Origin: an uncultured bacterium
GTDB taxonomy: Bacteria > Patescibacteriota > Minisyncoccia > Phycocordibacterales > UBA918
Length of the DNA: 39,922 bases
Direction of reading: 5' to 3'
NCBI GenBank assembly: GCA_913046815.1
Contig: CAJWTE010000002.1
Span: 1-39,922, forward strand
The notes below the pieces were generated by a model that saw only the letters and a list, made by a program, of their open reading frames with translations, was not told where the DNA came from and ran no database searches. Of this stretch, positions 4,078-28,927 are shown piece by piece (the first letter of the stretch is position 1; every line of letters begins with the position of its first letter). Made by a program: the position numbers and the translations under genes.

Positions 4078-4689
4078 ATGACTAAGTTAGACAAACTAAT
4101 AAAGCACTTTGAATGTTTTCCAGGTATAGGCGGACGACAAGCACGTCGGTTTGCTTTTCATATTCTCACCTTACAACAAGCCGAGGCAAGTGAACTGGCA
4201 GATCTAATAACCAACCTACGGGGCGAGGTAGTTGAATGTATTGGTTGTAGGCGATTCTTTGCCAGGAATGGCTCGCAATCTACCCAATGTCGCATTTGTG
4301 ACGACTTCAATCGTGACCAGTCTAAATTACTAGTAGTTGAAAGAGACAGCGACATCGATGCTATTGAACGAGGAGGTAGTTATGACGGGCTTTATTTTGT
4401 ACTAGGGGGCACATTGCCTCTCCTCAACTCCAAGGAACAAGCCAAGTTGCGTGGTAATGGATTAAAAAGAAGAGTGGAGGAAAAGATGCTTAGCGGATTA
4501 AGTGAGGTAATACTTGGTTTTGCAGTAAATCCAGATGGTGAGAATACTGCACGTTATGTTGAGACTTTGTTGCAAGACTGGCCAAAAAAGCTAACGGTGA
4601 CTCATTTGGGGCGAGGCCTTTCTACTGGATCAGAGCTCGAATATGCTGATCCAGATACCATCAAGAATGCTTTGGAGAATAGAAGTTAG
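4078..4689 (+). CDS. recR: recombination protein RecR
   Basis: 203 aa. FPGIGGRQARRFAFHIL helix-hairpin-helix, a C4 zinc finger (CIGC...CRIC) and a Toprim segment LLVVERDSD. Starts 3 nt after dnaB. Confidence 0.95.
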   Translation: MTKLDKLIKHFECFPGIGGRQARRFAFHILTLQQAEASELADLITNLRGEVVECIGCRRFFARNGSQSTQCRICDDFNRDQSKLLVVERDSDIDAIERGGSYDGLYFVLGGTLPLLNSKEQAKLRGNGLKRRVEEKMLSGLSEVILGFAVNPDGENTARYVETLLQDWPKKLTVTHLGRGLSTGSELEYADPDTIKNALENRS

Positions 4690-6825: not shown

Positions 6826-9525
6826 CTAACTACTAATAGCGCTGTGAGCAAAAAAGTGCATTTTTGCTATTTCCACCACAATAAAACCAATAAAAGCGAA
6901 ACTAAATGTAAGTGCCACTATGAAAGCCGGTAGCGGCGTATAGGACAGTATTTCTCTTGTAAATGGAATAGCAATTGCCCCAAACAAGAACAAAAGGCTT
7001 AAGAGTAACGAGGTAAAGAAAAACCGATTCACAAAAAACGGCGTCTTCCAAATTGGAGTCGACAATGTGCGAAATGCAAAAGCGATAAACAAAGAATCTA
7101 TAGAGATAGACAAGAACATCGCACTACGTAACTCATCTATCGGTAGACCCAAACTTACAAGGTAAAAATAAAGACTGACCGTCAGTGAACCTAGCACAAC
7201 AGTTACCATTCCTAAAAAATAAATCATGGTTTTTGACAGCACTCCCTCATGATGAATATCTCTCGGAGGAAGTTTCATGGCCCCTTTCTCTCCCTTTTCA
7301 AAAGCAAATGCCATACCCATCAGACCTTCTTCAACGATATTTGCCCACAATATTTGCACTGGCAAAAGCGGTGTAGCCATCCCCGCTACCAGAGCAGAAA
7401 CAATAAGAGCTACCTCCGTCAGACTGGTAGCGAGTAAATAGCCAATGATCTTGCGTAGGTTGGTGATAATTCGCCTACCCTCTTCAATAGCAGAGTAGAT
7501 GGTGCTAAAACTATCCTCAATCAGTATTAAGTCTGAAGCTTCCTTAGCAACCTCAGTGCCAGAGCCAATAGCTACTCCTATATTAGCCTTCTTGAGAGCC
7601 GGAGCATCATTTATGCCGTCTCCGGTCATCGCTACTATCTCGCCTCTACGCTGCAGCAACTCTGCTAGACGCATTTTTTGTCTTGGTAGAACCCGAGCAA
7701 ACACATGTACGTCTACCAAGGCTCGCAGGATCTCGTCATCAGCCATTGTTTCCAAGTCGCTTCCCGTGAGAGCTGTTTCGTGTGGTCCTGCTATACCCAC
7801 TTCCTTTGCAATGAAGAGCGCTGTTTCACTATTGTCTCCAGTAACCAAAACAATTTTGGCGCCAGCCTCCAAAACACCTTTTATAGAGTGCTTAATATTT
7901 TGTCGAACGGGATCATGAAGTACCAAAACGCCAAGAAAAACAATATCATTCAAAAGACCTGCGGGTTTTTTTGTATCAATTTCTGCCTCTTCCACATCTT
8001 TGTATGCGACCGCTACCAACCTCTTGCCACGACTACTTTCTAAAGTGATTGCTTCTAGTAGAGTTTCTTTCTCGTCTTCAGACAGCTCTTTCCTTCCATT
8101 TGCTCCTACTATATGAGTGGCTTTCTCAAGCAAGAACTCCGGGGCTCCATTAATACAAAGTCGATATCCTCCTTCCCCTTCTGCCAAACCGGCCGCAAAC
8201 CGATTCTCAGAGTTAAATGGTAAATAGTCCACTCTATGCGCATGCCAAGAGTCATCGCTACCATACAGACCAATATCTACTGCCGCCTCCAAAATCGCTT
8301 TTTCTACACCATCTCCACGGGCAACCGCTTTTTCTCCGTCAGTGTCAAGGTAGGCATCAATTGCACAAAAGGCTGTGCTAAATATTTCCTTTATAGTCTC
8401 ATCTTTGTGCCATTTTGATTCAGAATTCTCAGTCACTCCCCCATGAATCACACCCGTGACTTCCATTTCACCAATAGTCAATGTGCCTGTCTTGTCGGTT
8501 AAAACATAGGTAGTTGAACCCAGTGTCTCAGCTGCTAATATATTTCTAACTAGGCCTTTCTTCTTTAGAATAGCTTCCATTCCCACTGCCAAAATAACCG
8601 ACACAATGGCTGGCAAACCTTCAGGGATAGAGGCTACAGCAATAGCTACAGACAACAGGGCCATGTCATGGAATGAATTACCTTGCCATAGACCAACCAA
8701 CAGCACTATGAAAATGAGAGCGAGAATGATATATATAATCATTCTGGATACTTTTTCCATTTCGTATTGCACTGGAGTCTTAGCATCTTGTATTTCATTC
8801 AGACTACTGGCCAGCAATCCAATTTCGGTTTCATCGCCAATAGCAACCACCACGCCAATACCATATCCTTCCGCCACAAAAGTACCCTTAAAGGCCATAT
8901 TGATACGCTCAGACATATGAATGCCAACTACCAAGGGGTCTGTATTTTTTTTCACCGGCAACCACTCCCCCGTTAAAGGAGATTCGTTAACCGACAAATC
9001 TTTGACTTGTAGTAGTCGCAAGTCAGCCGGCACCTGTACACCGCTTTGTAACTCTACAATATCCCCTGGCACTAAGTCTTCCGCACTTATCTCATGACGG
9101 CCTCCATCGCGAAAAACTGTGATCGTGTGTGTTTGCGACTTAGCAAGTTTGTTAAATGCTTTAGAAGCGCGACCTTCTTGAAAAATACTGATTATGACAG
9201 CCAACACAAGTACAAGACCTATTACAGAAGCATCTATATATTCCTCCAATACTGTAGTGACTGCTAAAGCAAACAGTAACACCAATGACAACGGGGACTT
9301 CGCTTGCACTAATAACTTACTCCACCAAGGGGTCTTGGGTGGTGGAGAAAAGCGATTAAACCCATGTTCCTGGTTCCGCCTTGCAACGTCAACCTTAGAC
9401 AGCCCTGCACCATCCACACCTAAAACAGCCAGGACTTCCTCGACGGTATGTGCATGCCAATCATATTGCTTAGCATTATCTTCTTCCTCTCTAGGAACTA
9501 TTGTTGTTGGTGTCTGTATGACCAT
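6826..9525 (-). CDS. cation-transporting P-type ATPase (type II, Ca2+/Mg2+-like)
   Basis: 899 aa. DKTGTLT phosphorylation site, TGDN, GDGINDAPALKKANIGVAIG hinge, N-terminal cation-ATPase-N-like segment and 10 predicted TM-like stretches. Confidence 0.93.
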   Translation of the reverse strand: MVIQTPTTIVPREEEDNAKQYDWHAHTVEEVLAVLGVDGAGLSKVDVARRNQEHGFNRFSPPPKTPWWSKLLVQAKSPLSLVLLFALAVTTVLEEYIDASVIGLVLVLAVIISIFQEGRASKAFNKLAKSQTHTITVFRDGGRHEISAEDLVPGDIVELQSGVQVPADLRLLQVKDLSVNESPLTGEWLPVKKNTDPLVVGIHMSERINMAFKGTFVAEGYGIGVVVAIGDETEIGLLASSLNEIQDAKTPVQYEMEKVSRMIIYIILALIFIVLLVGLWQGNSFHDMALLSVAIAVASIPEGLPAIVSVILAVGMEAILKKKGLVRNILAAETLGSTTYVLTDKTGTLTIGEMEVTGVIHGGVTENSESKWHKDETIKEIFSTAFCAIDAYLDTDGEKAVARGDGVEKAILEAAVDIGLYGSDDSWHAHRVDYLPFNSENRFAAGLAEGEGGYRLCINGAPEFLLEKATHIVGANGRKELSEDEKETLLEAITLESSRGKRLVAVAYKDVEEAEIDTKKPAGLLNDIVFLGVLVLHDPVRQNIKHSIKGVLEAGAKIVLVTGDNSETALFIAKEVGIAGPHETALTGSDLETMADDEILRALVDVHVFARVLPRQKMRLAELLQRRGEIVAMTGDGINDAPALKKANIGVAIGSGTEVAKEASDLILIEDSFSTIYSAIEEGRRIITNLRKIIGYLLATSLTEVALIVSALVAGMATPLLPVQILWANIVEEGLMGMAFAFEKGEKGAMKLPPRDIHHEGVLSKTMIYFLGMVTVVLGSLTVSLYFYLVSLGLPIDELRSAMFLSISIDSLFIAFAFRTLSTPIWKTPFFVNRFFFTSLLLSLLFLFGAIAIPFTREILSYTPLPAFIVALTFSFAFIGFIVVEIAKMHFFAHSAISS

Positions 9526-20242: not shown

Positions 20243-20356
20243 TTTGCCTCCTCCTAATTGTACTCATTCGGAATTACTCTACAATCTTACTCAAACATGG
20301 TCAATATCTTTGTCTTTCTGGTATTATTTGCTAGTATTTGCGCACAATGAGTGTTG

Positions 20357-20427
20357 GCCCTATCGTCTAACGGCTAGGACACATGGTTCTCATCCATGAA
20401 ACCGGGGTTCGATTCCCCGTAGGGTCA
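20357..20427 (+). tRNA. tRNA-Glu (anticodon CUC)
   Basis: Manual cloverleaf. Acceptor GGCCCTA/TAGGGTC (one G-U pair), D arm GTCT..GGAC, anticodon stem CATGG/CCATG with loop TTCTCAT, T arm CGGGG-TTCGATT-CCCCG, discriminator A. The variable loop is short (AAC). No encoded CCA; CAA follows. Confidence 0.8.
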
Positions 20428-21944
20428 CAAAACGAGACTTCGTCTCGACTGAGCGAGCGCGTCGAAGACGCGCGAGATGAGGCAAGAGGAAAACGGGCTT
20501 TGCCCTGCAACACAAAACCAAAGGGTGACGAGACGGAGAAGCGCGCGGTTTTGTCACGAACCGAAGGGTTCGTTCCGACTTTTTTGACGAAAGCGGCGAT
20601 TTCGGAGAAATCATCGCTGGAGGATAAAAAGGTGGCTTGTTTCGTATCTAAAATCCACTCACGCAGGGGTTCGACCCAATTATTTCCTTGGTGGGCAAAA
20701 TCTTTCTTTTTCTCCTTTAAAGTCAGGGTGGCACGCATGATTTCGTCTTTCTTTTTAAGGTACAAGTCTTTCGGTATATCGCCATCCAAATAACTCTCCA
20801 CCAGTTTGTCCATGCGTGCTTCACTGGCTTTGATACTATCTGAAAGATTTTGTACACCACTTTGCGATGCGGTATTTTCTGCTTTCTCCCATTCCTCCAC
20901 TTTACCGAGCATGTATGCGGTATACGCATCGCAAAGCGAAATTGTTTGAAGCTGTGTCTTTAGTTGGTCGGCGAGAACGTCCTCGCGCACATATCCTTGG
21001 GAGCATGACCCTTTCTTTTTCGTACACCGATAGTACCTATATCTTCCCCCATGCCTTCCAGTTGCCCACTGAGCGGTAATCATAGAGTCACACTCTCCGC
21101 AACGAAAAAGATTGGTGAACGGAAAGTTATGACCAAGCCTTGTTTTTCTCGGCCGAGCGTTAGCCGACAAAACAACTTGTACGGCTTCAAACAATTTCGG
21201 GGAAAGTATTGGTGCAAAGCTTCCGTCAAACCATTCGTCTTTATGTTTGGTAAATCCGAGATAGGCTCGATTAGTTAGGATTCGTTTAACGGAAGCTTTG
21301 CCAAGTGGCGTACCTGCCTTTGTAGTGAGTCCAAGATCAAATAGAAAATGTGAAAGCGAGACAAGTCCATGCGTACCCTTTGCATACTCCTCATAAGCGC
21401 GCACAATAATCTGGCTATGCACTGGATGTGGCTCTATCACTTTCTTTGCCTTATTATTTACATAGCCAAAAGGAGCGCGCGTCAGCCACTCACCACGGCG
21501 TAGCTTTGCCCGCATACCTCGCTTCACATTTTGGGTTAAATTGTCCGAATAATACTTAGACTGACCAAAAGCCACTTGAAGCATGAACAACCCCTGCGGA
21601 GTGGGTTCAAACCAAAATGTCGGAAAGCGCAAAGACACTATTTTCTTTTGATCTACCGCGTAGATAACCTGCCCTCCATCTATACTATTACGTGCCAGTC
21701 TATCTGGATGCCACGCTAAAACACCAAACCCTTCCAAAGAGTTAATCTGCTCCATCATTTTATTAAAAACTGGTCTCCCGGGTGTCTTTGCGCTTTTTGA
21801 CTCTTGAAACTCCGTTAGGATTTCAAGATTTTCTTTACGCGCAAACTCTCGCATTTCAAAAAGCTGTGACTCAATAGACATGACTTGCTTATCGTCATCT
21901 TCGGTACTTTTGCGAGCGTATAGAAAATATTTTGGTTTGTTCAT
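20367..21944 (-). CDS. large serine recombinase (integrase type)
   Basis: 525 aa. Resolvase-type N-terminus YARKSTEDDDKQVMSIESQ, recombinase domain, zinc ribbon CGECDSMITAQ...YYRC, then a coiled-coil-like region. The last ~63 codons are encoded by antisense R1a and antisense tRNA-Glu, so the true C-terminus is uncertain. Confidence 0.9.
   Translation of the reverse strand: MNKPKYFLYARKSTEDDDKQVMSIESQLFEMREFARKENLEILTEFQESKSAKTPGRPVFNKMMEQINSLEGFGVLAWHPDRLARNSIDGGQVIYAVDQKKIVSLRFPTFWFEPTPQGLFMLQVAFGQSKYYSDNLTQNVKRGMRAKLRRGEWLTRAPFGYVNNKAKKVIEPHPVHSQIIVRAYEEYAKGTHGLVSLSHFLFDLGLTTKAGTPLGKASVKRILTNRAYLGFTKHKDEWFDGSFAPILSPKLFEAVQVVLSANARPRKTRLGHNFPFTNLFRCGECDSMITAQWATGRHGGRYRYYRCTKKKGSCSQGYVREDVLADQLKTQLQTISLCDAYTAYMLGKVEEWEKAENTASQSGVQNLSDSIKASEARMDKLVESYLDGDIPKDLYLKKKDEIMRATLTLKEKKKDFAHQGNNWVEPLREWILDTKQATFLSSSDDFSEIAAFVKKVGTNPSVRDKTARFSVSSPFGFVLQGKARFPLASSRASSTRSLSRDEVSFCDPTGNRTPVSWMRTMCPSR
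20412..20428. repeat. attL core (direct repeat copy 1, inside tRNA-Glu T arm/acceptor)
   Basis: ATTCCCCGTAGGGTCAC, identical to 27830-27846. Confidence 0.8.
20425..20553 (+). repeat. repeat R1a (129 bp, hairpin-rich), directly after tRNA-Glu
   Basis: Aligns without gaps to the reverse complement of 21985-22113, with 12 mismatches by manual alignment. Contains hairpins GAGAC-TTC-GTCTC, GCGCGTC-GAA-GACGCGC, GGGC-TTT-GCCC and CAAAACC...GGTTTTG. Confidence 0.9.
20553..20586 (+). terminator. intrinsic terminator-like hairpin plus T6 following R1a (antisense to the recombinase ORF)
   Basis: GTC-ACGAACC-GAAG-GGTTCGT-TCC-GAC, followed by TTTTTT (20580-20585). Confidence 0.5.
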
Positions 21945-21984
21945 AATTTTGGAAAAATTATATTTTTAGACATGAAACAAGAGG

Positions 21985-22183
21985 CAAAACCGCGCACTTT
22001 TCCGTCCCGTCACCCTTTGGTTTTGTGTTGCAGAGCAAAGCCCGTTTTCCTCTTGCTTCATCTCGCGCGCCTTCGGCGCGCTCGTTATCTAGAGACGAAG
22101 TCTCGTTTTGTGAAGAAATACTAACCCGCGCTCGAACTTACTTTGAACAGAACTAGCAACGCGCGGAGCGCGTGGTAGCTTTG
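21985..22183 (-). repeat. repeat R1b (21985-22113) plus X module (to 22183), forming the upstream/leader region of the recombinase gene
   Basis: R1b is the inverted copy of R1a. 22092-22183 is the inverted copy of 27395-27486, with 6 mismatches in 92 bp by manual alignment. Confidence 0.9.
22118..22147 (-). promoter_or_regulatory. promoter-like element inside X, pointing into R1b and the recombinase gene
   Basis: On the minus strand: TTCAAA (22147-22142), 18-nt spacer, TAGTAT (22123-22118). The same arrangement is conserved in the X copy at 27431-27460. Confidence 0.4.
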
Positions 22184-22263
22184 TACTTGAACGTACGCAT
22201 TCGCGTGCGTGGTGACGCTAAACAAGCGCCTCGGGGCGCGTTCGTCACCTCGCGCAGCAACCT

Positions 22264-22349
22264 CCAAAAATTTCCTTACCATTTCTAAAAAGCGGAAGGG
22301 GGTGCAGGGGGAAGCCGCCAAAAAGTTGAAAGGAAATTTTGGGGTTGCT
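22264..22349. repeat. repeat R2a (86 bp), perfect inverted copy of 24757-24842
   Basis: The manual reverse complement of 22264-22349 equals 24757-24842 at all 86 positions. Contains GGAAGGGGGTGCAGGGGGAAG. Confidence 0.95.
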
Positions 22350-22396
22350 AGTTTGCTTTACCTGTTCATTCTTCTTTCTCTAACGGCTGCCCTAGT

Positions 22397-22464
22397 GTAA
22401 CCAACCCGAATAACTCGAATCGCTAAGACAGCCATTAGAAAAAGCTATTCGGAAAGTTGGTTAC
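22397..22464. other. long two-tier hairpin (9-bp and 7-bp stems)
   Basis: GTAACCAAC-CCGAATA ... TATTCGG-AAA-GTTGGTTAC. Non-coding stretch between R2a and the terminators of the 306-aa ORF. Confidence 0.55.
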
Positions 22465-22484
22465 AAGTTCAGTATAGCATAATG

Positions 22485-22538
22485 AAAAACCGCTACGTGA
22501 TTTAGCGTAGCGGAAGGGTGGCGGCGTATCCGCCACCC
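22485..22538 (-). terminator. tandem terminator hairpins of the 306-aa ORF
   Basis: Read on the minus strand: GGGTGGCGG-ATACG-CCGCCACCC, then CCGCTACG-loop-CGTAGCGG followed by TTTTT. Confidence 0.75.
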
Positions 22539-22550
22539 TAGCAATTTCAA

Positions 22551-23471
22551 TCAGGAATCACGATGAGCCGCCGGACACGCGGCCTTGCATTCATCCTCGT
22601 TCCTGTAACAGTCCCAGAGTTGTCTCGGATGTTCATCCTCGAAGTGTGCAAAACTGTTTTCAATCTTGAGCACCTTTCTTGATATCGGGAAATATTGGTT
22701 GTTGAAGTCCCGATCATAAGAGTGAGAATGGTACACAACCCAGACCTTTTCGCCAGGCTTCACCCAGGAGATTGTCCTAAGTCTTTGTCCGAGAGCACTG
22801 TATTCTGTCTCTGCTCGCCCGAGCTTGCCCATGAGATCTTCGACCATCGTTTCGGCTGCAGCATAGAGTCGCTCAACAATTCCACGAAGCAGATACGAAC
22901 CGTTTTCCTTGTCCTGAAAACACCACTCGACGACCTTGAAGAGACTGACCTCAGAAACCTTGAGGTGTTCTTTAGTATCGTCGCTCCGTCTGTAAACCGT
23001 GTTGGTGAGTGACCCTGGAATAGCCGGATGTTTCCGTTTCTCCAGAAGCCATACGGTGTTCAGAATACAGAAGCGACCACCTCTATCAAGCAGAAGATGT
23101 TCACACGGTATCTCCTCCGGATAGCTGGCGTGGCCTTGAGCCATACTCTTGAAGCTTGACGGAAAGCTGTGACGCACTCCGCAGACGAGGAAGTCATGTC
23201 CCCAGCTAAACTCGCGCGATGCGCCAACATCGCCGAACCAGATTCTTGACGGAGGGCTTGAGTTGTATAGGCTCACGCCGTCATCCTCGGGAATGTCGAT
23301 TACTGGTACAAGTGTCGCCGGTTTGAATCCGTGAAGAAATTTTGGATTCACGATCTTCAGAGTTGATTTTATGATCTCCATCCAATCCCCAAAGGGAATT
23401 GCCTTGGGGTCAAGTACCTCACGACCTTCGAAAAAAGCAATTGTGTGTTCAGCATCCCTGACCGTAGCCAT
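22551..23471 (-). CDS. hypothetical protein, 306 aa, no recognisable family
   Basis: Long GC-rich ORF with SD AGAGAGG 8 nt upstream and its own terminators. No motif I can name. Confidence 0.7.
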   Translation of the reverse strand: MATVRDAEHTIAFFEGREVLDPKAIPFGDWMEIIKSTLKIVNPKFLHGFKPATLVPVIDIPEDDGVSLYNSSPPSRIWFGDVGASREFSWGHDFLVCGVRHSFPSSFKSMAQGHASYPEEIPCEHLLLDRGGRFCILNTVWLLEKRKHPAIPGSLTNTVYRRSDDTKEHLKVSEVSLFKVVEWCFQDKENGSYLLRGIVERLYAAAETMVEDLMGKLGRAETEYSALGQRLRTISWVKPGEKVWVVYHSHSYDRDFNNQYFPISRKVLKIENSFAHFEDEHPRQLWDCYRNEDECKAACPAAHRDS

Positions 23472-23649
23472 GTCGGATTCCTCTCTCTTTCAAATAGCAC
23501 TCCTGACCGTAGTCATGTCGAGCGCTGGTTGCTGTTATGGAACTCCTGTTCCGTTGCTACAGTGCTTTAAAATAGTGGTTTTGTCAACTAATCAACAGGC
23601 AGCTGTAAAAAGTTATAATTTGAACACAAATTTTGTTATACTAAGAATA

Positions 23650-24117
23650 ATGACCAAGAAAGCGACATACAGCGCTGATAATGTCGCCAAGTATCTTATT
23701 TACCTTGCCTCTCAAGAACTTGTCGGTGATAATCAAGAACGTGAAGGGATAACAAACCTTAAGTTACAAAAGGTGCTGTATTTTGTGCAAGCTTATTATC
23801 TTGCAAAATTGGGACATCCGTTGTTTTCAGACAAAATTGAAGCTTGGGAGTATGGACCTGTGATTCCAACTGTGTACAGAAAGTACAGAGCCAACGTTAG
23901 CAACCCAATAATTTTGGATGAAGATAAATCCACTCTTTCTGAGGAGGATAAAAAGAATGTACAAAAAATTTGGGAAACTTTTGGTGGTTACTCAGCTAGT
24001 CGTTTGGTAGATATTACTCATGCACATTCACCTTGGAAAGATGCCAGTCAAACTGCCAGTAAAGTTATTACAGCGAAGTCGCTAAGAGAATATTACACTC
24101 CTTTGCTAAACAAATAG
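23650..24117 (+). CDS. Panacea-domain (DUF4065, SocA/GepA-like) antitoxin-type protein
   Basis: 155 aa from the ATG at 23650; the ORF-track start at 23371 is an extension through the divergent promoter region. ITNLKLQKVLYFVQAYYLAKLGHPLFSDKIEAWEYGPVIPTVY and GGYSASRLVDITHAHSPW match the DUF4065 pattern. Confidence 0.8.
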   Translation: MTKKATYSADNVAKYLIYLASQELVGDNQEREGITNLKLQKVLYFVQAYYLAKLGHPLFSDKIEAWEYGPVIPTVYRKYRANVSNPIILDEDKSTLSEEDKKNVQKIWETFGGYSASRLVDITHAHSPWKDASQTASKVITAKSLREYYTPLLNK

Positions 24118-24130
24118 GCAAGGTTAATCC

Positions 24131-24532
24131 TTGTTTATGGACGGTCTAGATATTCCGACAAAATTTGATCTTGGGTACGCTGAGTCAAATGTGTGCTTTT
24201 CGATTACTGATTGTTCATTGAAGAAGTACTCGTTCTGGTGTTTGAACAAACAACAAGCAGAAACTTTGCTAAAACGATTGAAGCATATTGAAAAACTCAC
24301 ATGGAGCCAGTTCATAAATCTATCTAGACAAGACGGAGTCACGCCTGAAAAGAATGATACACCCAACTTTATAATGATCCATGAAGAAAATACCTCGCCC
24401 GACAAAATGGTTGAACAATATTATTTTCATTTCCGCATTGAGAAGAGAGGATTATTTCGTGTCTTCGGGTATCAGAAGAAACAATTCTTTTGTATAACTC
24501 ATATTGATCCGAATGGAAAAATAAACCACTAA
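24131..24532 (+). CDS. hypothetical protein, 133 aa; candidate toxin partner of the Panacea protein
   Basis: Starts 13 nt after the Panacea gene (TTG at 24131 or ATG at 24137). C-terminal RGLFRVFGYQKKQFFCITHIDPNGKINH is loosely reminiscent of RelE/ParE-superfamily C-termini, but no firm family assignment is possible. Confidence 0.6.
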   Translation: MFMDGLDIPTKFDLGYAESNVCFSITDCSLKKYSFWCLNKQQAETLLKRLKHIEKLTWSQFINLSRQDGVTPEKNDTPNFIMIHEENTSPDKMVEQYYFHFRIEKRGLFRVFGYQKKQFFCITHIDPNGKINH

Positions 24533-24559
24533 AATTAACAAAGTTACTAAGCTCACCTA

Positions 24560-24704
24560 ACAGCACCGCAGCAGCTCGCGCGAACGAATGTGAGCGAGCT
24601 ATGCGAAGGTGCTGTAGGCGTGAGCATGTATAGCGTACCACCTGCTCTGTATACGCGACAGCGCCTCGGGTGCCACCAGTCTGGAGAAAGTGATGAACAA
24701 AGCC
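24560..24704 (+). repeat. repeat Y, copy B (about 145 bp), direct copy of 27249-27401
   Basis: About 80 percent identity by eye with one ~9-nt indel. Nested stems are conserved in both copies: CAGCACC/GGTGCTG and AGCTCGC/GCGAGCT. Followed by hairpin AGCCCCT-loop-AGGGGCT (24701-24723). Confidence 0.8.
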
Positions 24705-24756
24705 CCTACTTCTTAAAGGGGCTTTGTGAAGAACTTTTGGAAGACTGGGAGGCAAA

Positions 24757-24842
24757 AGCAACCCCAAAATTTCCTTTCAACTTTTTGGCGGCTTCCCCCT
24801 GCACCCCCTTCCGCTTTTTAGAAATGGTAAGGAAATTTTTGG
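24757..24842. repeat. repeat R2b (86 bp), perfect inverted copy of 22264-22349
   Basis: See R2a. Confidence 0.95.
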
Positions 24843-24845
24843 GTA

Positions 24846-24927
24846 TTGCGAGTTTGCCGACCCCACTTATTATAATATATCACACTATATCAATGTAACA
24901 CATGAATGGTTAGAATGTTGATATAGT
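24846..24927 (+). promoter_or_regulatory. putative promoter and operator of the XRE gene
   Basis: TTGCGA (24846-24851) with TATTAT at 16 nt or TATAAT (24871-24876) at 19 nt. 10-bp inverted repeat ACTATATCAA (24884-24893) / TTGATATAGT (24918-24927) ends at the ATG. Confidence 0.4.
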
Positions 24928-25137
24928 ATGAATAGCAAGGCAGTTAAACAGTTCGCTTCGAACATGAAGCAAGTGCGTGAAGCGAAGAAAATGTCGCAAG
25001 GTGACATTTTCAGAGTGACAGGTATCGAAAGAGCGTATATCAGTAACCTCGAAGCTGGCAAACAAAATCCAACGTTAGAAACGATCGAAAAGATAGCACA
25101 AGCGTTGGGTGTTGAAGTTAGTGAATTAACAAAGTAA
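24928..25137 (+). CDS. XRE-family (Cro/CI-type) HTH transcriptional regulator
   Basis: 69 aa. MSQGDIFRVTGIERAYISNLEAGKQNPTLETIEKIAQALGV is a textbook HTH_3 pattern. Confidence 0.88.
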   Translation: MNSKAVKQFASNMKQVREAKKMSQGDIFRVTGIERAYISNLEAGKQNPTLETIEKIAQALGVEVSELTK

Positions 25138-25139
25138 GT

Positions 25140-26216
25140 ATGCCAAAAGGATTTGAATCAGCGTCAGCACACCCATCGCCACAAAAAATTGAAGGCGAGG
25201 ACGTGAGCAAAGTGACTGCCTCTGAAGAACGACCAACGTTTGATGAATTCGAAGGTGGCGAATTGGATGAGCGAGGCGAATTCAAAGAGCCTACCCCGGA
25301 GGAGCAAGAAAAGTTTCGTGACAGAGTTGCTCGTATGTCAGAGGTTCTTGAGGACGCGGACTTTACCTGGTATCTCGATGGAGCAACGAACATATCTTTG
25401 TATGGCGACCAAATGATACGAAACCATAAGGATTTAGACATGAGTGTGTTTCAAGAAGATCTTGGTAAATTAGAGGACCTGCTCAACAATCAAGGATTCG
25501 GAATTTTTGTTAACTACAAGGAAGATAGGAAAGAACTGATGCGAAAAGTGACTGCACAAGAATTAGGTTTACTTGAAAATCCAGACGTGTCGATTTGTAA
25601 AGTTGGACCAGACGGAACCCTTAGTTCAAAAAATTCGCACGAGGCTTTTGATTTTGTCGACTTACATATACGGGACATAGATGAATTTGGTGATGTTGTC
25701 GTTGGTTACAGTGGTATTTCTATACCTAAAGAATATTTTGAGCCGATAAGGAAAGAACTTCCAAACGGAAAAATAATCAGCCTTTCCCACCCTGCCGTTG
25801 TTGCCTACCACAAACTACACTCAACACGTGCATATGACGTAAAAGATTTGCAAATACTTTCACCCCTGCTCACACAAGAAGATATTGCAATGTTGCGGTC
25901 AAGCGTCGAGAAAGAAGCTGGGGTGTTAGATAAAAGGACACGTGAGGTATTAAAGGAAGTTTGGGGTGAATTGTCGCCTGTTCTAGAGACAGCACCTGAC
26001 CCAGATACAATTGCAGAGAAACTGCGGTCGCATCCTGAGATTGGAAAAAGAAATACTGACGAATCTGTTGCTAATTACATTTCATCAATTTCACAATATT
26101 TGTCCGAAAACCCTAGTGTAACTGCTGATGATTTCATCAGTCAGTCAATATCAATATTAAACATTAAAAAGCGAGCGGAAGAGCAGATAAAATTGATTGA
26201 TCAACTGGAGCAGTGA
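25140..26216 (+). CDS. nucleotidyltransferase-fold protein (Lnu/ANT(2'')-like core) with acidic N-terminal and helical C-terminal extensions
   Basis: 358 aa; starts 2 nt after the XRE stop. FTWYLDGATNISLYGDQMIRNHKDLDMSVF (G-x-D-x-D NTase motif), VDLHIRDIDEFGDVV and LSHPAVVAYHKLHSTRAYDVKDLQIL parallel the lincosamide nucleotidyltransferase LnuA layout as I recall it. Confidence 0.65.
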   Translation: MPKGFESASAHPSPQKIEGEDVSKVTASEERPTFDEFEGGELDERGEFKEPTPEEQEKFRDRVARMSEVLEDADFTWYLDGATNISLYGDQMIRNHKDLDMSVFQEDLGKLEDLLNNQGFGIFVNYKEDRKELMRKVTAQELGLLENPDVSICKVGPDGTLSSKNSHEAFDFVDLHIRDIDEFGDVVVGYSGISIPKEYFEPIRKELPNGKIISLSHPAVVAYHKLHSTRAYDVKDLQILSPLLTQEDIAMLRSSVEKEAGVLDKRTREVLKEVWGELSPVLETAPDPDTIAEKLRSHPEIGKRNTDESVANYISSISQYLSENPSVTADDFISQSISILNIKKRAEEQIKLIDQLEQ

Positions 26217-26235
26217 AGCCTTAAAATTTTTGAGT

Positions 26236-26264
26236 TTGACAACTAAGTATATCTATGCTATTCT
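26236..26264 (+). promoter_or_regulatory. sigma70-type promoter for the GC-rich patch sORF
   Basis: TTGACA (26236-26241), 17-nt spacer, TATTCT (26259-26264). Confidence 0.5.
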
Positions 26265-26307
26265 TTGTTTAGCTTAAACGCAGGTTTTTCCTGCACGTTC
26301 CGCCTAT

Positions 26308-27183
26308 TTAGGCACAACTCGATGGAGGAATCCAATATGCATGGTTATGTGAGACCGATGGGTAGGGCTGCATGGCGCGACCCGGTTCAGACGAGGAGTC
26401 TGTATCTCCTCGGCCCCGAGAGCTTTGACACCGTCCAGGTGCACGAGCTCGACGAGGACGGCAAGTCCGTCCGTGAATACCAGCACATCCGCCATGATCG
26501 TGTCGGAGACTGCTGGGCGGCTGAAGCCTGGCGACATCATCTTGGTAGATGAGCTTGCCGGCGACTGCTTCTACAACTTGTGTTGCTCGGAACAAATTTG
26601 CAGCTAACTCCTCGCTATTCATGTGATCTAGAATCTGTTGAGATTTCTTCAAGCTTTTTCTGCGGTGAATATCTTGACTCGTAAGTCCGCCATACAGGCC
26701 CTTATACCCAGCATTTTGGAAAATGGCGTAATTTTGCACGCCAGCACTCTTAGCGGTTTTTGTAAGGTTAGTATTATGCTTCTTCATTTCTTCCCTTAAA
26801 AATACACGCTTATTATCCTCAACTAAATTTTCAGTTTTTTCTTGCCTTCGTGTCTGTATCGCAAAGTATGTCTGTCCCTTTGCTACCACAACTTTTGTTG
26901 GGTCTGAATTTTGAACAATAAGATAACAGGCATATCTTGATAGATAGACAGTTTCAACAGACCTTTCTGCACCGGAACCCGTTTTAACCATTTCGGTGGC
27001 ATCAACGAAATGGTTGTGGATAACTTCTCCGCTGTTTTCACATGCTGTTTTAGCCTTATTTATAGCGGTTAAAAAGTTACGGTAATCTGTATACTCTAGA
27101 GCTTTTGCAAGGTCACGAGATGACCAAAATTCTGAATCATTTTCGTCAAAGCGTCTAATTGTTTCAAACTGATTTTCCTTCAT
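26308..27183 (-). CDS. dinD: DNA damage-inducible protein D (DinD) family; C-terminal ~89 codons non-homologous, likely 3' replacement
   Basis: From MKENQFETIRRF (start 27183 or 27192) to ELAANLFRATQ, the sequence tracks E. coli DinD as I recall it (SRYACYL.VQN.DP, GQTYFAIQTRRQE, FQN.GY.GLYGG, ILDHM.S.ELAANLFRATQ). Downstream of about 26578 the reading becomes an Arg/Pro/Gly-rich tail through the GC-rich patch. Confidence 0.8.
   Translation of the reverse strand: MKENQFETIRRFDENDSEFWSSRDLAKALEYTDYRNFLTAINKAKTACENSGEVIHNHFVDATEMVKTGSGAERSVETVYLSRYACYLIVQNSDPTKVVVAKGQTYFAIQTRRQEKTENLVEDNKRVFLREEMKKHNTNLTKTAKSAGVQNYAIFQNAGYKGLYGGLTSQDIHRRKSLKKSQQILDHMNSEELAANLFRATQVVEAVAGKLIYQDDVARLQPPSSLRHDHGGCAGIHGRTCRPRRARAPGRCQSSRGRGDTDSSSEPGRAMQPYPSVSHNHAYWIPPSSCA
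26337..26552 (+). CDS. hypothetical small protein, 71 aa, in a GC-rich patch
   Basis: SD GGAGG (26324-26328) lies 8 nt before the ATG at 26337, with a promoter upstream. Antisense to the non-homologous tail of the DinD-like ORF, so only one of the two readings can be genuine. Confidence 0.45.
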   Translation: MHGYVRPMGRAAWRDPVQTRSLYLLGPESFDTVQVHELDEDGKSVREYQHIRHDRVGDCWAAEAWRHHLGR

Positions 27184-27248
27184 TTTGACCATTATACTAC
27201 AAAATAAGAACACTGACTTCCTGCTCAAAAACACACCGTTGCGAACCC

Positions 27249-27512
27249 ACAGCACCGTAGCAGCTCGCGCGAACGGGCGTTAGCTCGTGAGCGAGCTGTG
27301 CGGAGGTGCTGGAGGTGAGAGCGTGTTTAGCATTACCACGCGGTTGGTCTACACGTAGCGCCTCGGGCGCCAACAGACTGGAGAAAAGTCTGAACAAAGC
27401 CACCACGCGCTCGGCGCGTTGCTAGTTCTGTTCAAAATAAGTTCGAGTAAGGGTTAGTATTTCTTCACAAAACGAGACTTCGTCTCTATTGAGCGGGCGC
27501 GCCGAGCGCGCT
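27249..27512 (+). repeat. composite repeat Y-X-R1c (copy C)
   Basis: Y 27249-27401 is a direct copy of 24560-24704. X 27395-27486 is an inverted copy of 22092-22183. From 27465 a partial R1 copy follows (hairpin GAGAC-TTC-GTCTC, then GCGCGC-CGA-GCGCGC). The promoter-like TTCAAA-18-TAGTAT lies at 27431-27460. Confidence 0.85.
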
Positions 27513-27563
27513 GCAATCATTGTCTTTTCTCAAAGTGGGTTCGAGCGAGGGTAAGTATTTCTT

Positions 27564-27611
27564 CACGAGTACAGAAAACAGCACCTGTCAAAGGTGCGTT
27601 TTCTGTTCGTG
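27564..27611 (+). other. long hairpin preceded by a second X-like box
   Basis: CACGA-GT-ACAGAAAAC-A-GCACC-TGTCAAA-GGTGC-GTTTTCTGT-TCGTG. Preceded by GGGTTCGAGCGAGGGTAAGTATTTCTTCAC (27537-27566), a degenerate copy of the X 3' end. Confidence 0.55.
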
Positions 27612-27811: not shown

Positions 27812-28927
27812 TTAGTGACCGTCAGGATCATTCCCCGTAGGGTCACCAGCCCAAAAAAGATGGGTTCGTAGCGACTGCTCACTCTCGAACCTTTCTATCG
27901 CCAGTTTTATAAGCCGATCAATTAACTCAGTGTAGGGGATGCCACTATGTTCCCACAACTGTGGATACATGCTTACTTTTGTAAAGCCGGGAATAGTATT
28001 GATTTCTATCACCTTTAACTCTCCATCTGGCTGAAGGAAAAAGTCCACCCGACCTAGGCCAGAGCACTCCAGAAGTTTAAAAACCCTCACAGCTAATCCT
28101 TGCACTTCCTCCACCTTTTCCGCGTCCAATTCGGCTGGGATTTTTAGAGCTGCTCCATTTTCATCTATATACTTGGCTTCATAAGAGTAAAAGTCATGAG
28201 CCGGCACAATTTCTCCAGGAATGGACGCTACTGGATCCCTGTTTCCCAGCACAGCACACTCTATCTCTCTGCCTTCCACTGCTTCTTCCACGATGATTTT
28301 CGTATCATAGGAAAAAGCCTCTTTCACAACTTCATACAATTCACTCTCATTACTGGCTTTATTGACACCTACAGAAGAGCCCATGTTTACAGGCTTCACA
28401 AATACAGGCCAACCTAACTTAGCTTCGACTTCCAAGCCATCAACATCGTCGACACTTCGGTAAACTAGAAAGTCAGCCGTGGGTATACCCGCGTCTCGTA
28501 AAAGACGCTTCATAACGTCCTTATCCATTCCAACAGCGGAACCAAGCACCCCGGCACCCACGTAAGGTACACATGCTAATTCTAACAAACCTTGTACTGT
28601 TCCGTCTTCACCCATAGGTCCGTGCAGTATAGGAAATACAACATCTACAGCTCCAGGATTGTTTGAGAGCTGTCCGTGACATGATGGTACTAATGAGATC
28701 TCCTCATTGACTTGGTTTAAAGCAATCAACTTTGGGTCGTTACTATTCAGTAGAAGCTCACTTTCATTACCCATAAGCCACTTCCCTTTCTTAGTGATAC
28801 CAATAGGTATTACTTCATACTTCTGTTTATCGATGGCGTCGATAACATTTTGTGCGGATTGTAAGGACACCTCATGCTCAGCAGATAATCCACCAAACAA
28901 GATGCCAACTCTAATTTTCTTATCCAT
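27812..28927 (-). CDS. ddl: D-alanine--D-alanine ligase
   Basis: MDKKIRVGILFGGLSAEHEVSLQSA, GEDGTVQGLLE and an ATP-grasp layout. Start 28927 is preferred over the ORF-track 28963, which lies inside a palindrome. The C-terminal tail ...WAGDPTGNDPDGH reads through attR. Confidence 0.93.
   Translation of the reverse strand: MDKKIRVGILFGGLSAEHEVSLQSAQNVIDAIDKQKYEVIPIGITKKGKWLMGNESELLLNSNDPKLIALNQVNEEISLVPSCHGQLSNNPGAVDVVFPILHGPMGEDGTVQGLLELACVPYVGAGVLGSAVGMDKDVMKRLLRDAGIPTADFLVYRSVDDVDGLEVEAKLGWPVFVKPVNMGSSVGVNKASNESELYEVVKEAFSYDTKIIVEEAVEGREIECAVLGNRDPVASIPGEIVPAHDFYSYEAKYIDENGAALKIPAELDAEKVEEVQGLAVRVFKLLECSGLGRVDFFLQPDGELKVIEINTIPGFTKVSMYPQLWEHSGIPYTELIDRLIKLAIERFESEQSLRTHLFWAGDPTGNDPDGH
27830..27846. 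repeat. attR core (direct repeat copy 2)
   Basis: ATTCCCCGTAGGGTCAC. Here GGGTCA is followed by CCA, as expected for an original tRNA 3' end with encoded CCA. Confidence 0.8.

What the first reader, a model, noticed from the sequence alone, without database searches (positions are those of the whole stretch)
22264..24842. Perfect 86-bp inverted repeats enclosing a 2.4-kb three-gene segment: candidate invertible cassette or nested TIR element
Seen in sequence:
- 22264-22349 is the exact reverse complement of 24757-24842 (86/86 by manual check). The other repeat families in the island are only 80-93 percent identical.
- The enclosed 2407 bp holds the 306-aa orphan (minus strand) and the Panacea gene plus the 133-aa ORF (plus strand). 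These diverge from a central promoter region.
- I see no target-site duplication next to the repeats.
- Just outside R2b lies the promoter/operator of the XRE gene. Just outside R2a lies the upstream region of the recombinase.

Inference: perfect identity implies very recent duplication or ongoing homogenisation by recombination, for example recombinase-mediated or RecA-mediated inversion. Flipping would change which 3' ends, terminators and structured elements face the XRE promoter and the recombinase upstream region. It would also place the Y(B) repeat in inverted orientation relative to Y(C).
Basis: partly seen in the sequence, partly recalled or inferred. Interest (0 to 1): 0.8.

Follow-up and report, generated by a model that had tools for sequence, protein, structure and literature searches.

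The report
Flippable gene cassette in recombinase island
The perfect 86-bp inverted repeats are real and bracket a three-gene cassette that public ocean assemblies show in both orientations, and the repeats are the inner part of a conserved, so far undescribed end-module of serine-recombinase islands that sit at tRNA genes in many Patescibacteria.

Summary
In detail: 22264-22349 is the exact reverse complement of 24757-24842 (86/86). Near-identical Tara Oceans assemblies carry the 2.4-kb segment in the window orientation (scaffold_70, L043) and in the flipped orientation. L042 and L044 show the two reciprocal junctions of the flipped state.

The same cassette, with no differences from 86-mer to 86-mer, also lies in another genomic context (L002).

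The 86-mer is not a free-standing MITE. It is the hairpin-forming inner end of a conserved non-coding module of about 240 nt. This module lies next to the attP-type site of a large family of large serine recombinases (LSRs) that integrate at tRNA 3' ends in Patescibacteria. In at least 13 related islands, two inverted copies of the module flank variable cargo. The two copies are often 100% identical within an island (up to 631 bp) but differ by 10-25% between islands. One lineage shows a gene-conversion patch.

In the window the second copy is cut down to 86 bp and lacks the LSR core. I therefore attribute the flipping to homologous recombination between the arms (about 55%). Site-specific recombination at the hairpin is the main rival (about 25%). 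No regulatory effect of the flip could be shown.

The parts
20356..20428 (+). tRNA-Glu(CTC). Its last bases, TCAC (20425-20428), are the core of the island's left junction (attL-type: tRNA | X).
   Evidence: ARAGORN and Rfam; junction alignment.
20367..21944 (-). Large serine recombinase (525 aa; Resolvase + Recombinase + Zn-ribbon domains). Its last ~20 codons are the antisense of the tRNA, so the ORF runs across the attachment junction.
   Evidence: More than 6790 homologues, mostly from Patescibacteria where a source names them; tails after ...EVSxC differ with the target tRNA. Nearest solved structure is SPbeta SprA/YokA, E 6e-11.
20425..20553 (-). X: the last ~43 codons of the recombinase gene. 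One arm of a 129-nt, 91% inverted repeat that flanks the recombinase gene.
21985..22113 (+). X': an orphan inverted copy of the recombinase 3' end, ending in the core GTGA (22110-22113). X'|Zout is the attP-type, unrecombined junction.
   Evidence: The same arrangement occurs in L005, L033, L034 and L032.
22114..22263 (+). Zout (22114-22156, reads ...EEILTRARTYFEQN* in the recombinase frame) plus Z (22157-22263). This is the conserved outer part of the module, with small GC hairpins.
   Evidence: Alignments. Structure counts. L020 shows a real recombinase ORF ending in Zout.
22264..22349 (+). Left 86-bp arm: the hairpin-forming inner end of the complete, recombinase-proximal module.
22350..22550 (.). 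B element: conserved inner flank with a long hairpin (GTAACCAAC...GTTGGTTAC) and the terminator of the 306-aa gene.
   Evidence: It is 85% conserved in L053, next to a homologue that is only 50% identical.
22551..23471 (-). 306-aa protein of unknown function. Only two remote homologues were found among 5.8 billion sequences.
23472..23649 (.). Central divergent promoter region of the cassette, with a promoter-like site at 23592-23619. A 25-nt direct repeat (23451-23475 / 23496-23520) spans its left edge.
23650..24117 (+). PanA-type antitoxin (SocA/Panacea domain). The ORF is open from 23371; gene callers chose 23515 or 23650 as the start.
24131..24532 (+). 131/133-aa MAG6450-family protein. It is the presumed toxin partner of PanA.
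24540..24756 (.).
24757..24842 (-). Right 86-bp arm: a truncated module copy lacking Z, Zout and the recombinase core. Its outer edge abuts the -35 box of the XRE promoter.
24843..27255 (.). Second cassette: XRE promoter/operator (24846-24931), XRE (24928-25137), nucleotidyltransferase (25140-26216) and DinD/Bro-N protein (26308-27213, minus strand).
   Evidence: An XRE...DinD frame also occurs in L011.
27249..27566 (-). Distal, decayed module. It holds a second A/Y copy (27249-27406), part of Z' plus Zout' plus the core TCAC (27394-27468), a 43-nt X fragment (27469-27511) and a second Zout' plus core (27530-27566). The last of these is the attR-type junction with chromosomal DNA. The 86-mer was lost here by a deletion at the shared octamer ACAAAGCC.
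27830..27846 (+). 17-bp exact repeat of the tRNA-Glu 3' end (ATTCCCCGTAGGGTCAC), overlapping the last codons of ddl. It is probably a relic of an older integration.

Best explanation
Window 20425-27566 is an integrated island of a family of large-serine-recombinase (LSR) elements that insert at the 3' end of tRNA genes in Patescibacteria.

Beside its attP-type site, the family carries a conserved non-coding module of about 240 nt: Zout + Z + an ~86-nt hairpin. Two inverted copies of this module bracket the cargo. One inner flank carries a promoter (-35 box GT(A/G)TTGCGA) or the B hairpin. The other carries the A element with a terminator.

In the window the recombinase-proximal copy is complete (22110-22349). 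A second copy survives only as the 86-mer plus the A element (24540-24842), at the place where two cassettes abut. This explains why the perfect repeat is exactly 86 bp.

The 2.4-kb segment between the arms is a self-contained cassette: an orphan 306-aa protein plus a PanA antitoxin and a MAG6450-family putative toxin. It was acquired recently as a block and it flips in natural populations.

My committed mechanism is RecA-type homologous recombination between the two identical arms, with gene conversion keeping them identical. This resembles the flip-flop isomerisation of other long inverted repeats. The adjacent LSR is not required. The same conserved arms serve as portable homology for swapping cassettes between islands.

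Shown: the repeat, the module family, the junction cores, both orientations, the identical cassette in a second context, arm homogenisation and a conversion patch.

Inferred: the enzyme responsible, the attP assignment, cassette exchange by homologous recombination, and the lack of a dedicated switch function.
For: 1. The repeat is exact.

2. The 23-nt or 21-nt centre of the 86-mer was found in 8 loci of 7 genome assemblies of 185,579 species (all titled Candidatus Paceibacterota, Kaiserbacteria, Nomurabacteria or Saccharibacteria, except one titled only 'bacterium'). It was also found in 20 metagenome contigs and in no viral contig. In every real copy except window 24757-24842, the 86-mer is fused to Z/Zout.

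3. Inverted module pairs flank different cargo in the window, L004, L005, L006, L007, L010, L011, L015, L019/23/25, L022, L031, L033 and L034/35.

4. All three junction types share the core GTGA: X'|Zout, X|tRNA and chromosome|Zout. The LSR ORFs end ...EVSxC and then continue either as antisense tRNA or as Zout.

5. Both orientations exist at 99.98-100% identity. The window orientation is in scaffold_70 and L043. The flipped orientation is in L042 and L044, which give the two reciprocal junctions.

6. The cassette shows no differences from ~22238 to 24783 in L002, whose flanks are unrelated. By contrast, 25 differences fall in 22150-22263.

7. Arms within an island are 100% identical over 226-631 bp in L005, L006, L007, L033 and L034 (L004 96/96 to its contig end; L015 232/233), while arms of different islands differ by 10-25%.

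8. In L025 the distal arm carries a central tract of five proximal-arm alleles that L019, L023 and L016 lack. This is a gene-conversion patch and not exchange at one fixed point.

9. The right arm has no LSR core, and the left core lies 151 nt outside the 86-mer.

10. Homologous cargo (XRE...DinD-A) lies in opposite orientation relative to the LSR in L011 compared with the window, L005, L033 and L034.
Against: Orientation evidence comes from assemblies, not reads. L044 extends only 21 nt past the repeat, and L042 is a contig from a metagenome-assembled genome (MAG).

Homologous recombination does not explain why the hairpin is conserved. Its stem covaries (6 of 13 pairs with double changes) and its interior is nearly constant.

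It also does not explain why cassette limits fall so close to the outer edge of the 86-mer.

In the window itself the other inverted repeats (X/X' 91%, Zout-Z 89%) are not homogenised.

No recA gene lies in the window, so its presence in this genome is assumed from general knowledge.

The constancy of the hairpin interior is partly an artefact of searching with it. L053 has a 1-nt deletion there, and L031 and L034 have a different hairpin.
Confidence: 0.55

Rival explanations
1. Site-specific inversion and cassette exchange at the hairpin. In this reading the 86-mer is a dedicated recombination site, analogous in shape to an integron attC site. The island's LSR or an unlinked enzyme recognises it, flips cassettes and moves them between islands.
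For: The hairpin stem covaries while its interior is almost constant across islands whose other parts differ by 10-25%. The 86-mer alone is enough for flipping in the window lineage. The 100%-identity block shared with L002 starts at about the outer edge of the 86-mer. In the window, two cassettes are separated by a single 86-mer. G-U pairs favour one strand, as expected for a folded single strand.
Against: The 86-mer has no similarity to the LSR junction core or arms (GTGA). Its symmetric parts lie 29-43 nt from its centre, too far for one LSR dimer site (established knowledge of ~40-50-bp att sites). No tyrosine or HUH recombinase is encoded in the island. Neighbouring 86-mers are inverted, not direct as in integron arrays. 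Whole-arm homogenisation and the conversion patch in Z, outside the hairpin, point to general homologous recombination. Distant relatives keep the architecture with a different hairpin sequence.
Confidence: 0.25
2. There is no active inversion. The two orientations are fixed differences between strains or assembly chimeras at the repeat, and the inverted repeat is only a scar of tandem or inverted integrations of related elements.
For: All the evidence is at contig level. Several assemblies break inside the repeat (L002, L045, L051, L052, L055). The window island is clearly composite and decayed.
Against: Two independent assemblies give the two reciprocal junctions expected of a true inversion, at 100% identity. 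A 99.98%-identical 8.2-kb flank means the flip is very recent. The same inverted architecture recurs in 13 or more islands with homogenised arms, and cargo occurs in both polarities.
Confidence: 0.1
3. The module is mainly a structured RNA, either a leader of the cargo operon or the 3' UTR of the recombinase gene. The inverted duplication and the flipping would then be incidental.
For: 97.9% of cells pair in the proposed structure, against 92.5% in shuffles and 37-57% when partners are slid. One-sided changes are G-U compatible on the strand that reads from the recombinase side into the cargo. In L005, L032, L033 and L034 the module lies just upstream of the first cargo gene (XRE), which reads the same way.
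Against: No Rfam family matches, even at E<=5. Folding energy of the 86-mer, computed with DNA parameters only, is not better than shuffles (z -0.5 and -1.0). Most covariation traces to two or three events in one helix. XRE has its own promoter downstream of the hairpin. No expression data exist.
Confidence: 0.1

Closest known systems
Flip-flop isomerisation between long identical inverted repeats (plastid genome inverted repeats; yeast 2-micron plasmid with FLP)
   Same: Two long inverted repeats are kept identical, apparently by recombination or gene conversion. Both orientations of the enclosed unique segment co-exist. In the inferred circular form, the two repeats (X + Zout + Z + hairpin, about 360 bp) would split the element into a recombinase arc and a cargo arc, as in the 2-micron plasmid.
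   Different: This element is integrated at a tRNA gene and has no replication genes. The recombinase is an LSR whose core lies inside the repeat, but the window's right arm lacks that core. No amplification role is evident.
Invertible segments and invertons (Hin/Gin/Cin/Pin serine invertases, Fim switch, shufflons)
   Same: A DNA segment bounded by inverted repeats lies next to a serine-family recombinase gene, and both orientations are present in the population.
   Different: The arms are 86-631 bp rather than about 10-30 bp. The recombinase is a large integrase-type enzyme with its own att sites elsewhere. No promoter or coding sequence is visibly switched. Homologous recombination is the likelier mechanism.
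Serine-integrase genomic islands at RNA genes or fixed sites (Dehalococcoides ssrA islands, PMC3146451; SCCmec/Ccr; LSR-type tycheposons, bioRxiv 10.1101/2020.12.28.424599)
   Same: These are small integrase-plus-cargo islands at a tRNA or tmRNA 3' end, with rapidly changing defence or accessory cargo and tandem accretion.
   Different: Here the LSR ORF crosses the att site. The island keeps an internal inverted attP-type copy. The cargo is bracketed by long inverted structured modules. I have not read of these three features for the named elements (own knowledge). Searches of the paper library with Patescibacteria, Candidate Phyla Radiation and recombinase terms listed no description of such an element.
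Integron cassettes with attC sites
   Same: Gene cassettes are delimited by imperfect-palindrome hairpins of about 60-140 nt, with conserved structure and a strand bias. Cargo is variable and often defence or TA genes. Cassettes occur in series.
   Different: There is no IntI tyrosine recombinase and no attI site. Neighbouring hairpins are inverted, not direct. No R'/R'' core motifs were identified.
PanAT toxin-antitoxin pairs (Panacea/DUF4065 antitoxins)
   Same: A SocA/Panacea-domain protein is followed by a small unrelated protein in one operon.
   Different: Toxicity and neutralisation were not tested. The partner belongs to the uncharacterised MAG6450 family.

Membership tests
Invertible DNA segment (phase-variation type switch) | Segment bounded by inverted repeats | tested here: met
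   86/86 exact inverted repeat enclosing 2407 bp.
Invertible DNA segment (phase-variation type switch) | Both orientations occur in otherwise identical genomes | tested here: met
   The window orientation is in scaffold_70 and L043. The flipped orientation is in L042 and L044, with reciprocal junctions at 99.98-100% identity. This is contig-level evidence only.
Invertible DNA segment (phase-variation type switch) | Dedicated site-specific recombinase acting on short sites within the repeats | tested here: inconclusive
   An LSR is adjacent. However, its core GTGA lies 151 nt outside the left arm (22110-22113 versus arm start 22264) and is absent from the right arm. No other recombinase is present in the island. 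Activity cannot be tested with these tools.
Invertible DNA segment (phase-variation type switch) | Flip switches a promoter or coding sequence | tested here: not met
   The cassette has its own central divergent promoters, and both its ends are 3' ends with terminators. The arm sequence joined to each end is identical in both states. Only the read-through and antisense context changes.
Transposon or MITE with terminal inverted repeats | Terminal inverted repeats | tested here: met
Transposon or MITE with terminal inverted repeats | Target-site duplication | tested here: not met
   The flanks AACCT| and |GTATT are unrelated.
Transposon or MITE with terminal inverted repeats | Many dispersed copies at unrelated sites | tested here: not met
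   There are two copies in the window. Only 8 loci were found among 185,579 species genomes, and every copy with enough flanking sequence on its contig is joined to the Z module of the LSR islands (L007, L009 and L010 were not examined beyond the module). The complete 995-kb genome CP060229 has one locus.
Transposon or MITE with terminal inverted repeats | Same unit found at a different locus | tested here: met
   L002 carries the unit with 0 differences from ~22238 to 24783 in a different context. That context is again a Z-bearing module.
Large-serine-recombinase integrative island | LSR domain set (Resolvase, Recombinase, Zn ribbon) | tested here: met
   Pfam E-values 3.6e-22, 5.9e-10 and 1.4e-11. 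Nearest solved structure is SprA.
Large-serine-recombinase integrative island | Recombinant junctions sharing a short core with an unrecombined site | tested here: met
   GTGA is common to X'|Zout, X|tRNA and chromosome|Zout in the window, L005, L033 and L034.
Large-serine-recombinase integrative island | Excision to a circle, or an empty attB in relatives | not tested
   LSRs with the Zout tail occur only on contigs of 7.1 kb or less. This fits circles or minority isomers but proves neither.
Integron cassette array | IntI tyrosine recombinase and attI site | tested here: not met
   No tyrosine recombinase is present in the island.
Integron cassette array | Hairpin sites in direct orientation between cassettes | tested here: not met
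   Neighbouring 86-mers are inverted.
Known RNA family (Rfam 15) | Covariance-model match | tested here: not met
   Only the tRNA matched, at both the gathering threshold and E<=5.
PanAT toxin-antitoxin | Panacea-domain antitoxin adjacent to a toxin gene | tested here: inconclusive
   The Panacea domain scores E 1.2e-24. The partner is a MAG6450-family protein, E 3.9e-11. Toxicity cannot be tested here.

The most novel reading that the evidence does not exclude
The Z + hairpin module may be a new kind of structured recombination or docking site. Patescibacteria would then run an integron-like cassette platform built around a large serine recombinase or an unknown hairpin-specific enzyme. Cassettes bounded by the hairpins would be flipped and exchanged between tRNA-linked islands by a dedicated mechanism and not by general homologous recombination.
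Probability: 0.2. Interest if true: 0.9.

Novelty: new variant of a known kind. Interest (0 to 1): 0.66.

Why it matters
Patescibacteria (the Candidate Phyla Radiation, CPR) have tiny genomes, and their mobile elements are barely described.

This locus uncovers a very large family of tRNA-targeting serine-recombinase islands (>6790 homologues at E<1e-30) that carry restriction-modification, toxin-antitoxin and other accessory cassettes. The cassettes sit between long, homogenised, structured inverted modules. The data give concrete evidence that such a cassette both flips and moves between genomes in the ocean.

If the arms act as portable homology or as true recombination sites, this would be a general route for turnover of defence genes in organisms thought to depend on natural DNA uptake.

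The clear att junctions (core GTGA, with the recombinase ORF crossing the site) also make this family attractive for the discovery of LSR att sites.

Tried and rejected
**Known RNA family.** Rfam gave only the tRNA, at the gathering threshold and at E<=5.

**Phage or plasmid origin of the module.** There was no blastn hit in 50,697 phage or 72,556 plasmid records, and no hit among IMG/VR viral contigs.

**Dispersed MITE.** Rejected: copies occur only within the island module.

**Protein-coding module.** Rejected for Z and the 86-mer. Alignments show 1-3-nt indels and paired substitutions. Only Zout shows codon-like third-position variation, and it is the end of the recombinase reading frame.

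**Guide-RNA idea.** I asked whether the module pairs with the att sites, by analogy with IS110 bridge RNA. No shared or complementary word of 8 nt or more exists between the module and the tRNA, att flanks or attP region in the window, and only chance-level 7-8-mers in L011.

**Strong thermodynamic hairpin.** The DNA-fold z-scores of -0.5 and -1.0 are not significant. Support for the stem comes from covariation only.

**The LSR as the invertase at its own core.** Rejected for the window, because the right arm lacks the core.

**The 17-bp tRNA repeat at 27830 as the island's right end.** Set aside. The junction with the family core lies at 27566/27567, so the 263 bp between them look like an older remnant.

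**Function of the 306-aa protein.** No family hit and only two remote homologues. I did not pursue it with structure prediction.

**More orientation evidence from other look-ups.** Searches returned only contigs that stop inside the repeats.


Full report
**Observation.** The repeat is real. A script check shows that 22264-22349 equals the reverse complement of 24757-24842 at 86 of 86 positions. Identity is lost sharply on both sides. The repeat finder reports 93 nt at 97%. The 23-nt centre occurs twice in the window even with three mismatches allowed, and never in shuffles. Each 86-mer is itself an imperfect hairpin (pairs I6 and I11). The other repeats of the region are 76-91% identical. There is no target-site duplication.

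**Setting.** The repeat lies in an island that starts at the 3' end of tRNA-Glu (20356-20428). The island holds a 525-aa large serine recombinase (LSR) on the minus strand. The LSR reading frame runs on into the antisense of the tRNA.

**The 86-mer is part of a larger conserved module.** An exact search with the centre of the 86-mer found 8 loci from 7 of the 185,579 species genome assemblies. All are titled Candidatus Paceibacterota, Kaiserbacteria, Nomurabacteria or Saccharibacteria, except L006, titled only 'bacterium'. The search also found 20 metagenome contigs and no viral contig. Alignment of all copies shows that the 86-mer is always joined on one side to a conserved stretch of about 150 nt, here called Zout + Z. 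The only exception is window 24757-24842. The window therefore has one complete module (22110-22349) and one truncated copy, and 86 bp is simply their overlap.

**What Zout and the junctions are.** Translating the outer part shows that Zout is the end of a recombinase reading frame (...EVSFC|EEILTLARTYFEQN*). In L020 a real LSR ORF ends this way and is followed by Z, the hairpin and the A element. The LSR family is very large, with more than 6790 homologues at E<1e-30. The members all end ...EVSxC and then diverge. Most continue as the antisense of a tRNA 3' end. A minority, all on contigs of 7.1 kb or less, continue as Zout. Aligning junctions from the window, L005, L033 and L034 shows one shared core, GTGA, at three junction types: X'|Zout, X|tRNA and chromosome|Zout.

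I read these three junctions as the attP-type site and the two recombinant junctions of an LSR integration. The TCGAAC motif lies at 13-18 nt from the core in the tRNA half and at 19-24 nt in the Zout half. This fits the known outward shift of the zinc-ribbon-domain motif in attP half-sites. That link is an inference from established LSR structural work and was not tested here.

**Canonical architecture.** L033, whose LSR is 83% identical to the window's, shows the arrangement most clearly:

chromosome | Zout-Z-hairpin-A - cargo - hairpin'-Z'-Zout' | X' - LSR - X | tRNA.

Inverted module pairs flank unrelated cargo in at least 13 islands. The cargo includes restriction-modification systems, toxin-antitoxin genes, kinases and an ABC transporter. 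The LSR gene itself is flanked by an inverted copy of its own last ~43 codons (X/X').

**Inner flanks.** The inner flanks are of two conserved kinds, one per arm. The A element has a terminator-like hairpin. The B side begins with GT(A/G)TTGCGA, which is the -35 box of the promoter of the first cargo gene, usually an XRE regulator. In the window's first cassette the B side carries a long hairpin instead. That hairpin is 85% conserved in L053, next to a protein that is only 50% identical.

**The window as a composite.** The window holds two cassettes sharing one 86-mer. The XRE promoter's -35 box sits directly against the outer edge of the right arm. The distal module (27249-27566) lost its hairpin by a deletion at the shared octamer ACAAAGCC, and it carries an extra attP-type fragment.

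**Evidence for inversion.** Looking up the cassette's proteins in public assemblies gave contigs of the same lineage in both orientations.
- Window orientation: scaffold_70 (seen in three samples) and L043.
- Flipped orientation, right junction: L042 (GCA_002708195.1, PAMK01000004.1). It matches window 32969->24752 at 99.98% and then, through the 86-mer, 22264->24717 at 100%.
- Flipped orientation, left junction: L044 (JGI 3300020447). It runs 23389->24842 and then 21 nt into the reverse complement of 22263->22243.

These are the two reciprocal junctions expected of a true inversion. Other assemblies break inside the repeats (L002, L045, L051, L052, L055). That is what a repeat or a mixed population would cause.

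On a longer time scale, homologous cargo (XRE ... DinD-A) has its promoter end at the distal arm in L011. In the window, L005, L033 and L034 the promoter end lies toward the recombinase.

**Evidence for mobility.** L002 carries the cassette with no difference from about 22238 to 24783. There are 25 differences in the 114 nt just outside (22150-22263), and the genes beyond are unrelated (ClpB, IF-2). The block between the 86-mers has therefore moved very recently between two module-bearing loci.

**Mechanism.** Within an island the two arms are usually identical: L005 226/226, L006 631/631, L007 242/242, L033 233/233 and L034 254/254. X/X' is 131/131 in L033 and L034. Arms of different islands differ by 10-25%. 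This is concerted evolution.

In the related islands L016, L019, L023 and L025, the distal arm of L025 carries a central tract of five proximal-arm alleles. The others lack this tract, so it is a gene-conversion patch and not exchange at one point.

The window's right arm lacks the LSR core, and the left core is 151 nt outside the 86-mer.

Together these points favour general homologous recombination between the arms, with the flip as a by-product. The 86-bp arms are well above the commonly cited minimum length of roughly 25-30 bp for RecA-type recombination (own knowledge). The presence of recA in this genome is assumed and was not shown.

**What homologous recombination does not explain.** It does not account for the conservation of the hairpin. 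Its outer stem covaries: AAAATTTCC/GGAAATTTT changes to CACCCATCC/GGATGGGTG, with 6 of 13 pairs showing double changes. Overall 97.9% of cells pair, against 92.5% in shuffles and 37-57% when partners are slid. G-U pairs favour the strand that reads from the recombinase side into the cargo.

The hairpin therefore has some function of its own. It could be a recombination site, an RNA element, a terminator or insulator, or a protein-binding site. I could not tell which.

Two cautions apply. The constancy of the hairpin interior is partly due to searching with it: L053 has a 1-nt deletion there, and L031 and L034 have a different hairpin. Folding energy alone is not significant.

**Regulatory effect.** I found no sign that flipping switches anything. 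The cassette has its own central divergent promoters, and both its ends are 3' ends with terminators. The arm sequence joined to each end is the same in both states. Only the read-through and antisense context changes.

**Novelty.** Five full-text searches combining Patescibacteria or Candidate Phyla Radiation with recombinase terms such as serine recombinase, tRNA, genomic or defence island, inversion and inverted repeats found no description of these elements. The module matches no Rfam family and no phage or plasmid record.

The closest known things are listed separately:
- flip-flop inverted repeats;
- invertase switches;
- serine-integrase islands at RNA genes;
- integron attC cassettes.

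I rate this as a new variant of a known kind. It is an LSR integrative island, but with an att-spanning recombinase gene, an internal inverted attP-type copy, and long structured inverted modules around an invertible, exchangeable cargo.

**Confidence.**
- Repeat and module family: about 0.95.
- Inversion in nature: about 0.85.
- Homologous recombination as the mechanism: about 0.55.

Noticed in passing
window 27830-27846 (compare 20411-20427): A 17-bp exact copy of the tRNA-Glu 3' end overlaps the last codons of ddl. It lies 263 bp beyond the island's family-type right junction (27566/27567). It is probably a relic of an earlier integration at the same tRNA.
   Followed up: partly
window 20367-20428; proteins P0001-P0120: The recombinase ORF crosses the attachment junction, so its C-terminal tail depends on what it is joined to. 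Across the family, the tails after ...EVSxC read as the antisense of different tRNA 3' ends (DPTGNRTP, GEGGIRTLE, APSRNRTHI and others) or as Zout (EILTFARTYFE).
   Followed up: partly
L014 276-422 and L022 ~1860-2231: A tRNA 3' end is followed by a short near-perfect palindrome made of the two X-ends, and then directly by Zout-Z-hairpin. This looks like a recombinase-less derivative of the island.
   Followed up: no
window 23451-23475 and 23496-23520: A 25-nt direct repeat (88%) lies 45 nt apart, and each copy contains a possible start codon of the 306-aa gene. Contigs from three assemblies start at 23389 or 23411/23412, just beside a small palindrome (CCCCAAAGGGAATTGCCTTGGGG).
   Followed up: no
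L053 2581-2934: The B hairpin element is 85% identical to the window's, although the adjacent homologue of the 306-aa protein is only 50% identical. There it is paired with an AAA_15/AAA_21 ATPase instead of PanAT. B therefore appears to belong to the backbone, not to the cargo.
   Followed up: partly
L006 3529-4159 / 7370-8000, and 4416-4502: The inverted repeat here is at least 631 bp and perfect, running far beyond the module. ARAGORN also calls a tRNA-Gly just inside the A element. This may be a larger inverted duplication or an assembly effect.
   Followed up: no
L005 7761-7997: A different ORF (at least 79 aa, ...DDRMSAIC|EEILTLARTYFEQN*) reads into the distal Zout at the same junction point. 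It may be a second recombinase-like gene that uses the same core. The locus ends before its start.
   Followed up: no
L011 188-3305 compared with window 24928-27213: The cargo frame XRE ... DinD/Bro-N-A is shared (the XRE sequences align closely by eye; identity not computed) while the genes between differ. The window has a nucleotidyltransferase there, and L011 has a kinase-like protein, a 197-aa protein and a 184-aa acetyltransferase-like protein. This suggests a second, inner level of cassette turnover.
   Followed up: no
window 27394-27406 / 24695-24705: The distal module lost its hairpin and the inner part of Z by a deletion between two copies of ACAAAGCC. One copy lies in the A element and the other in the reverse complement of Z.
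   Followed up: partly
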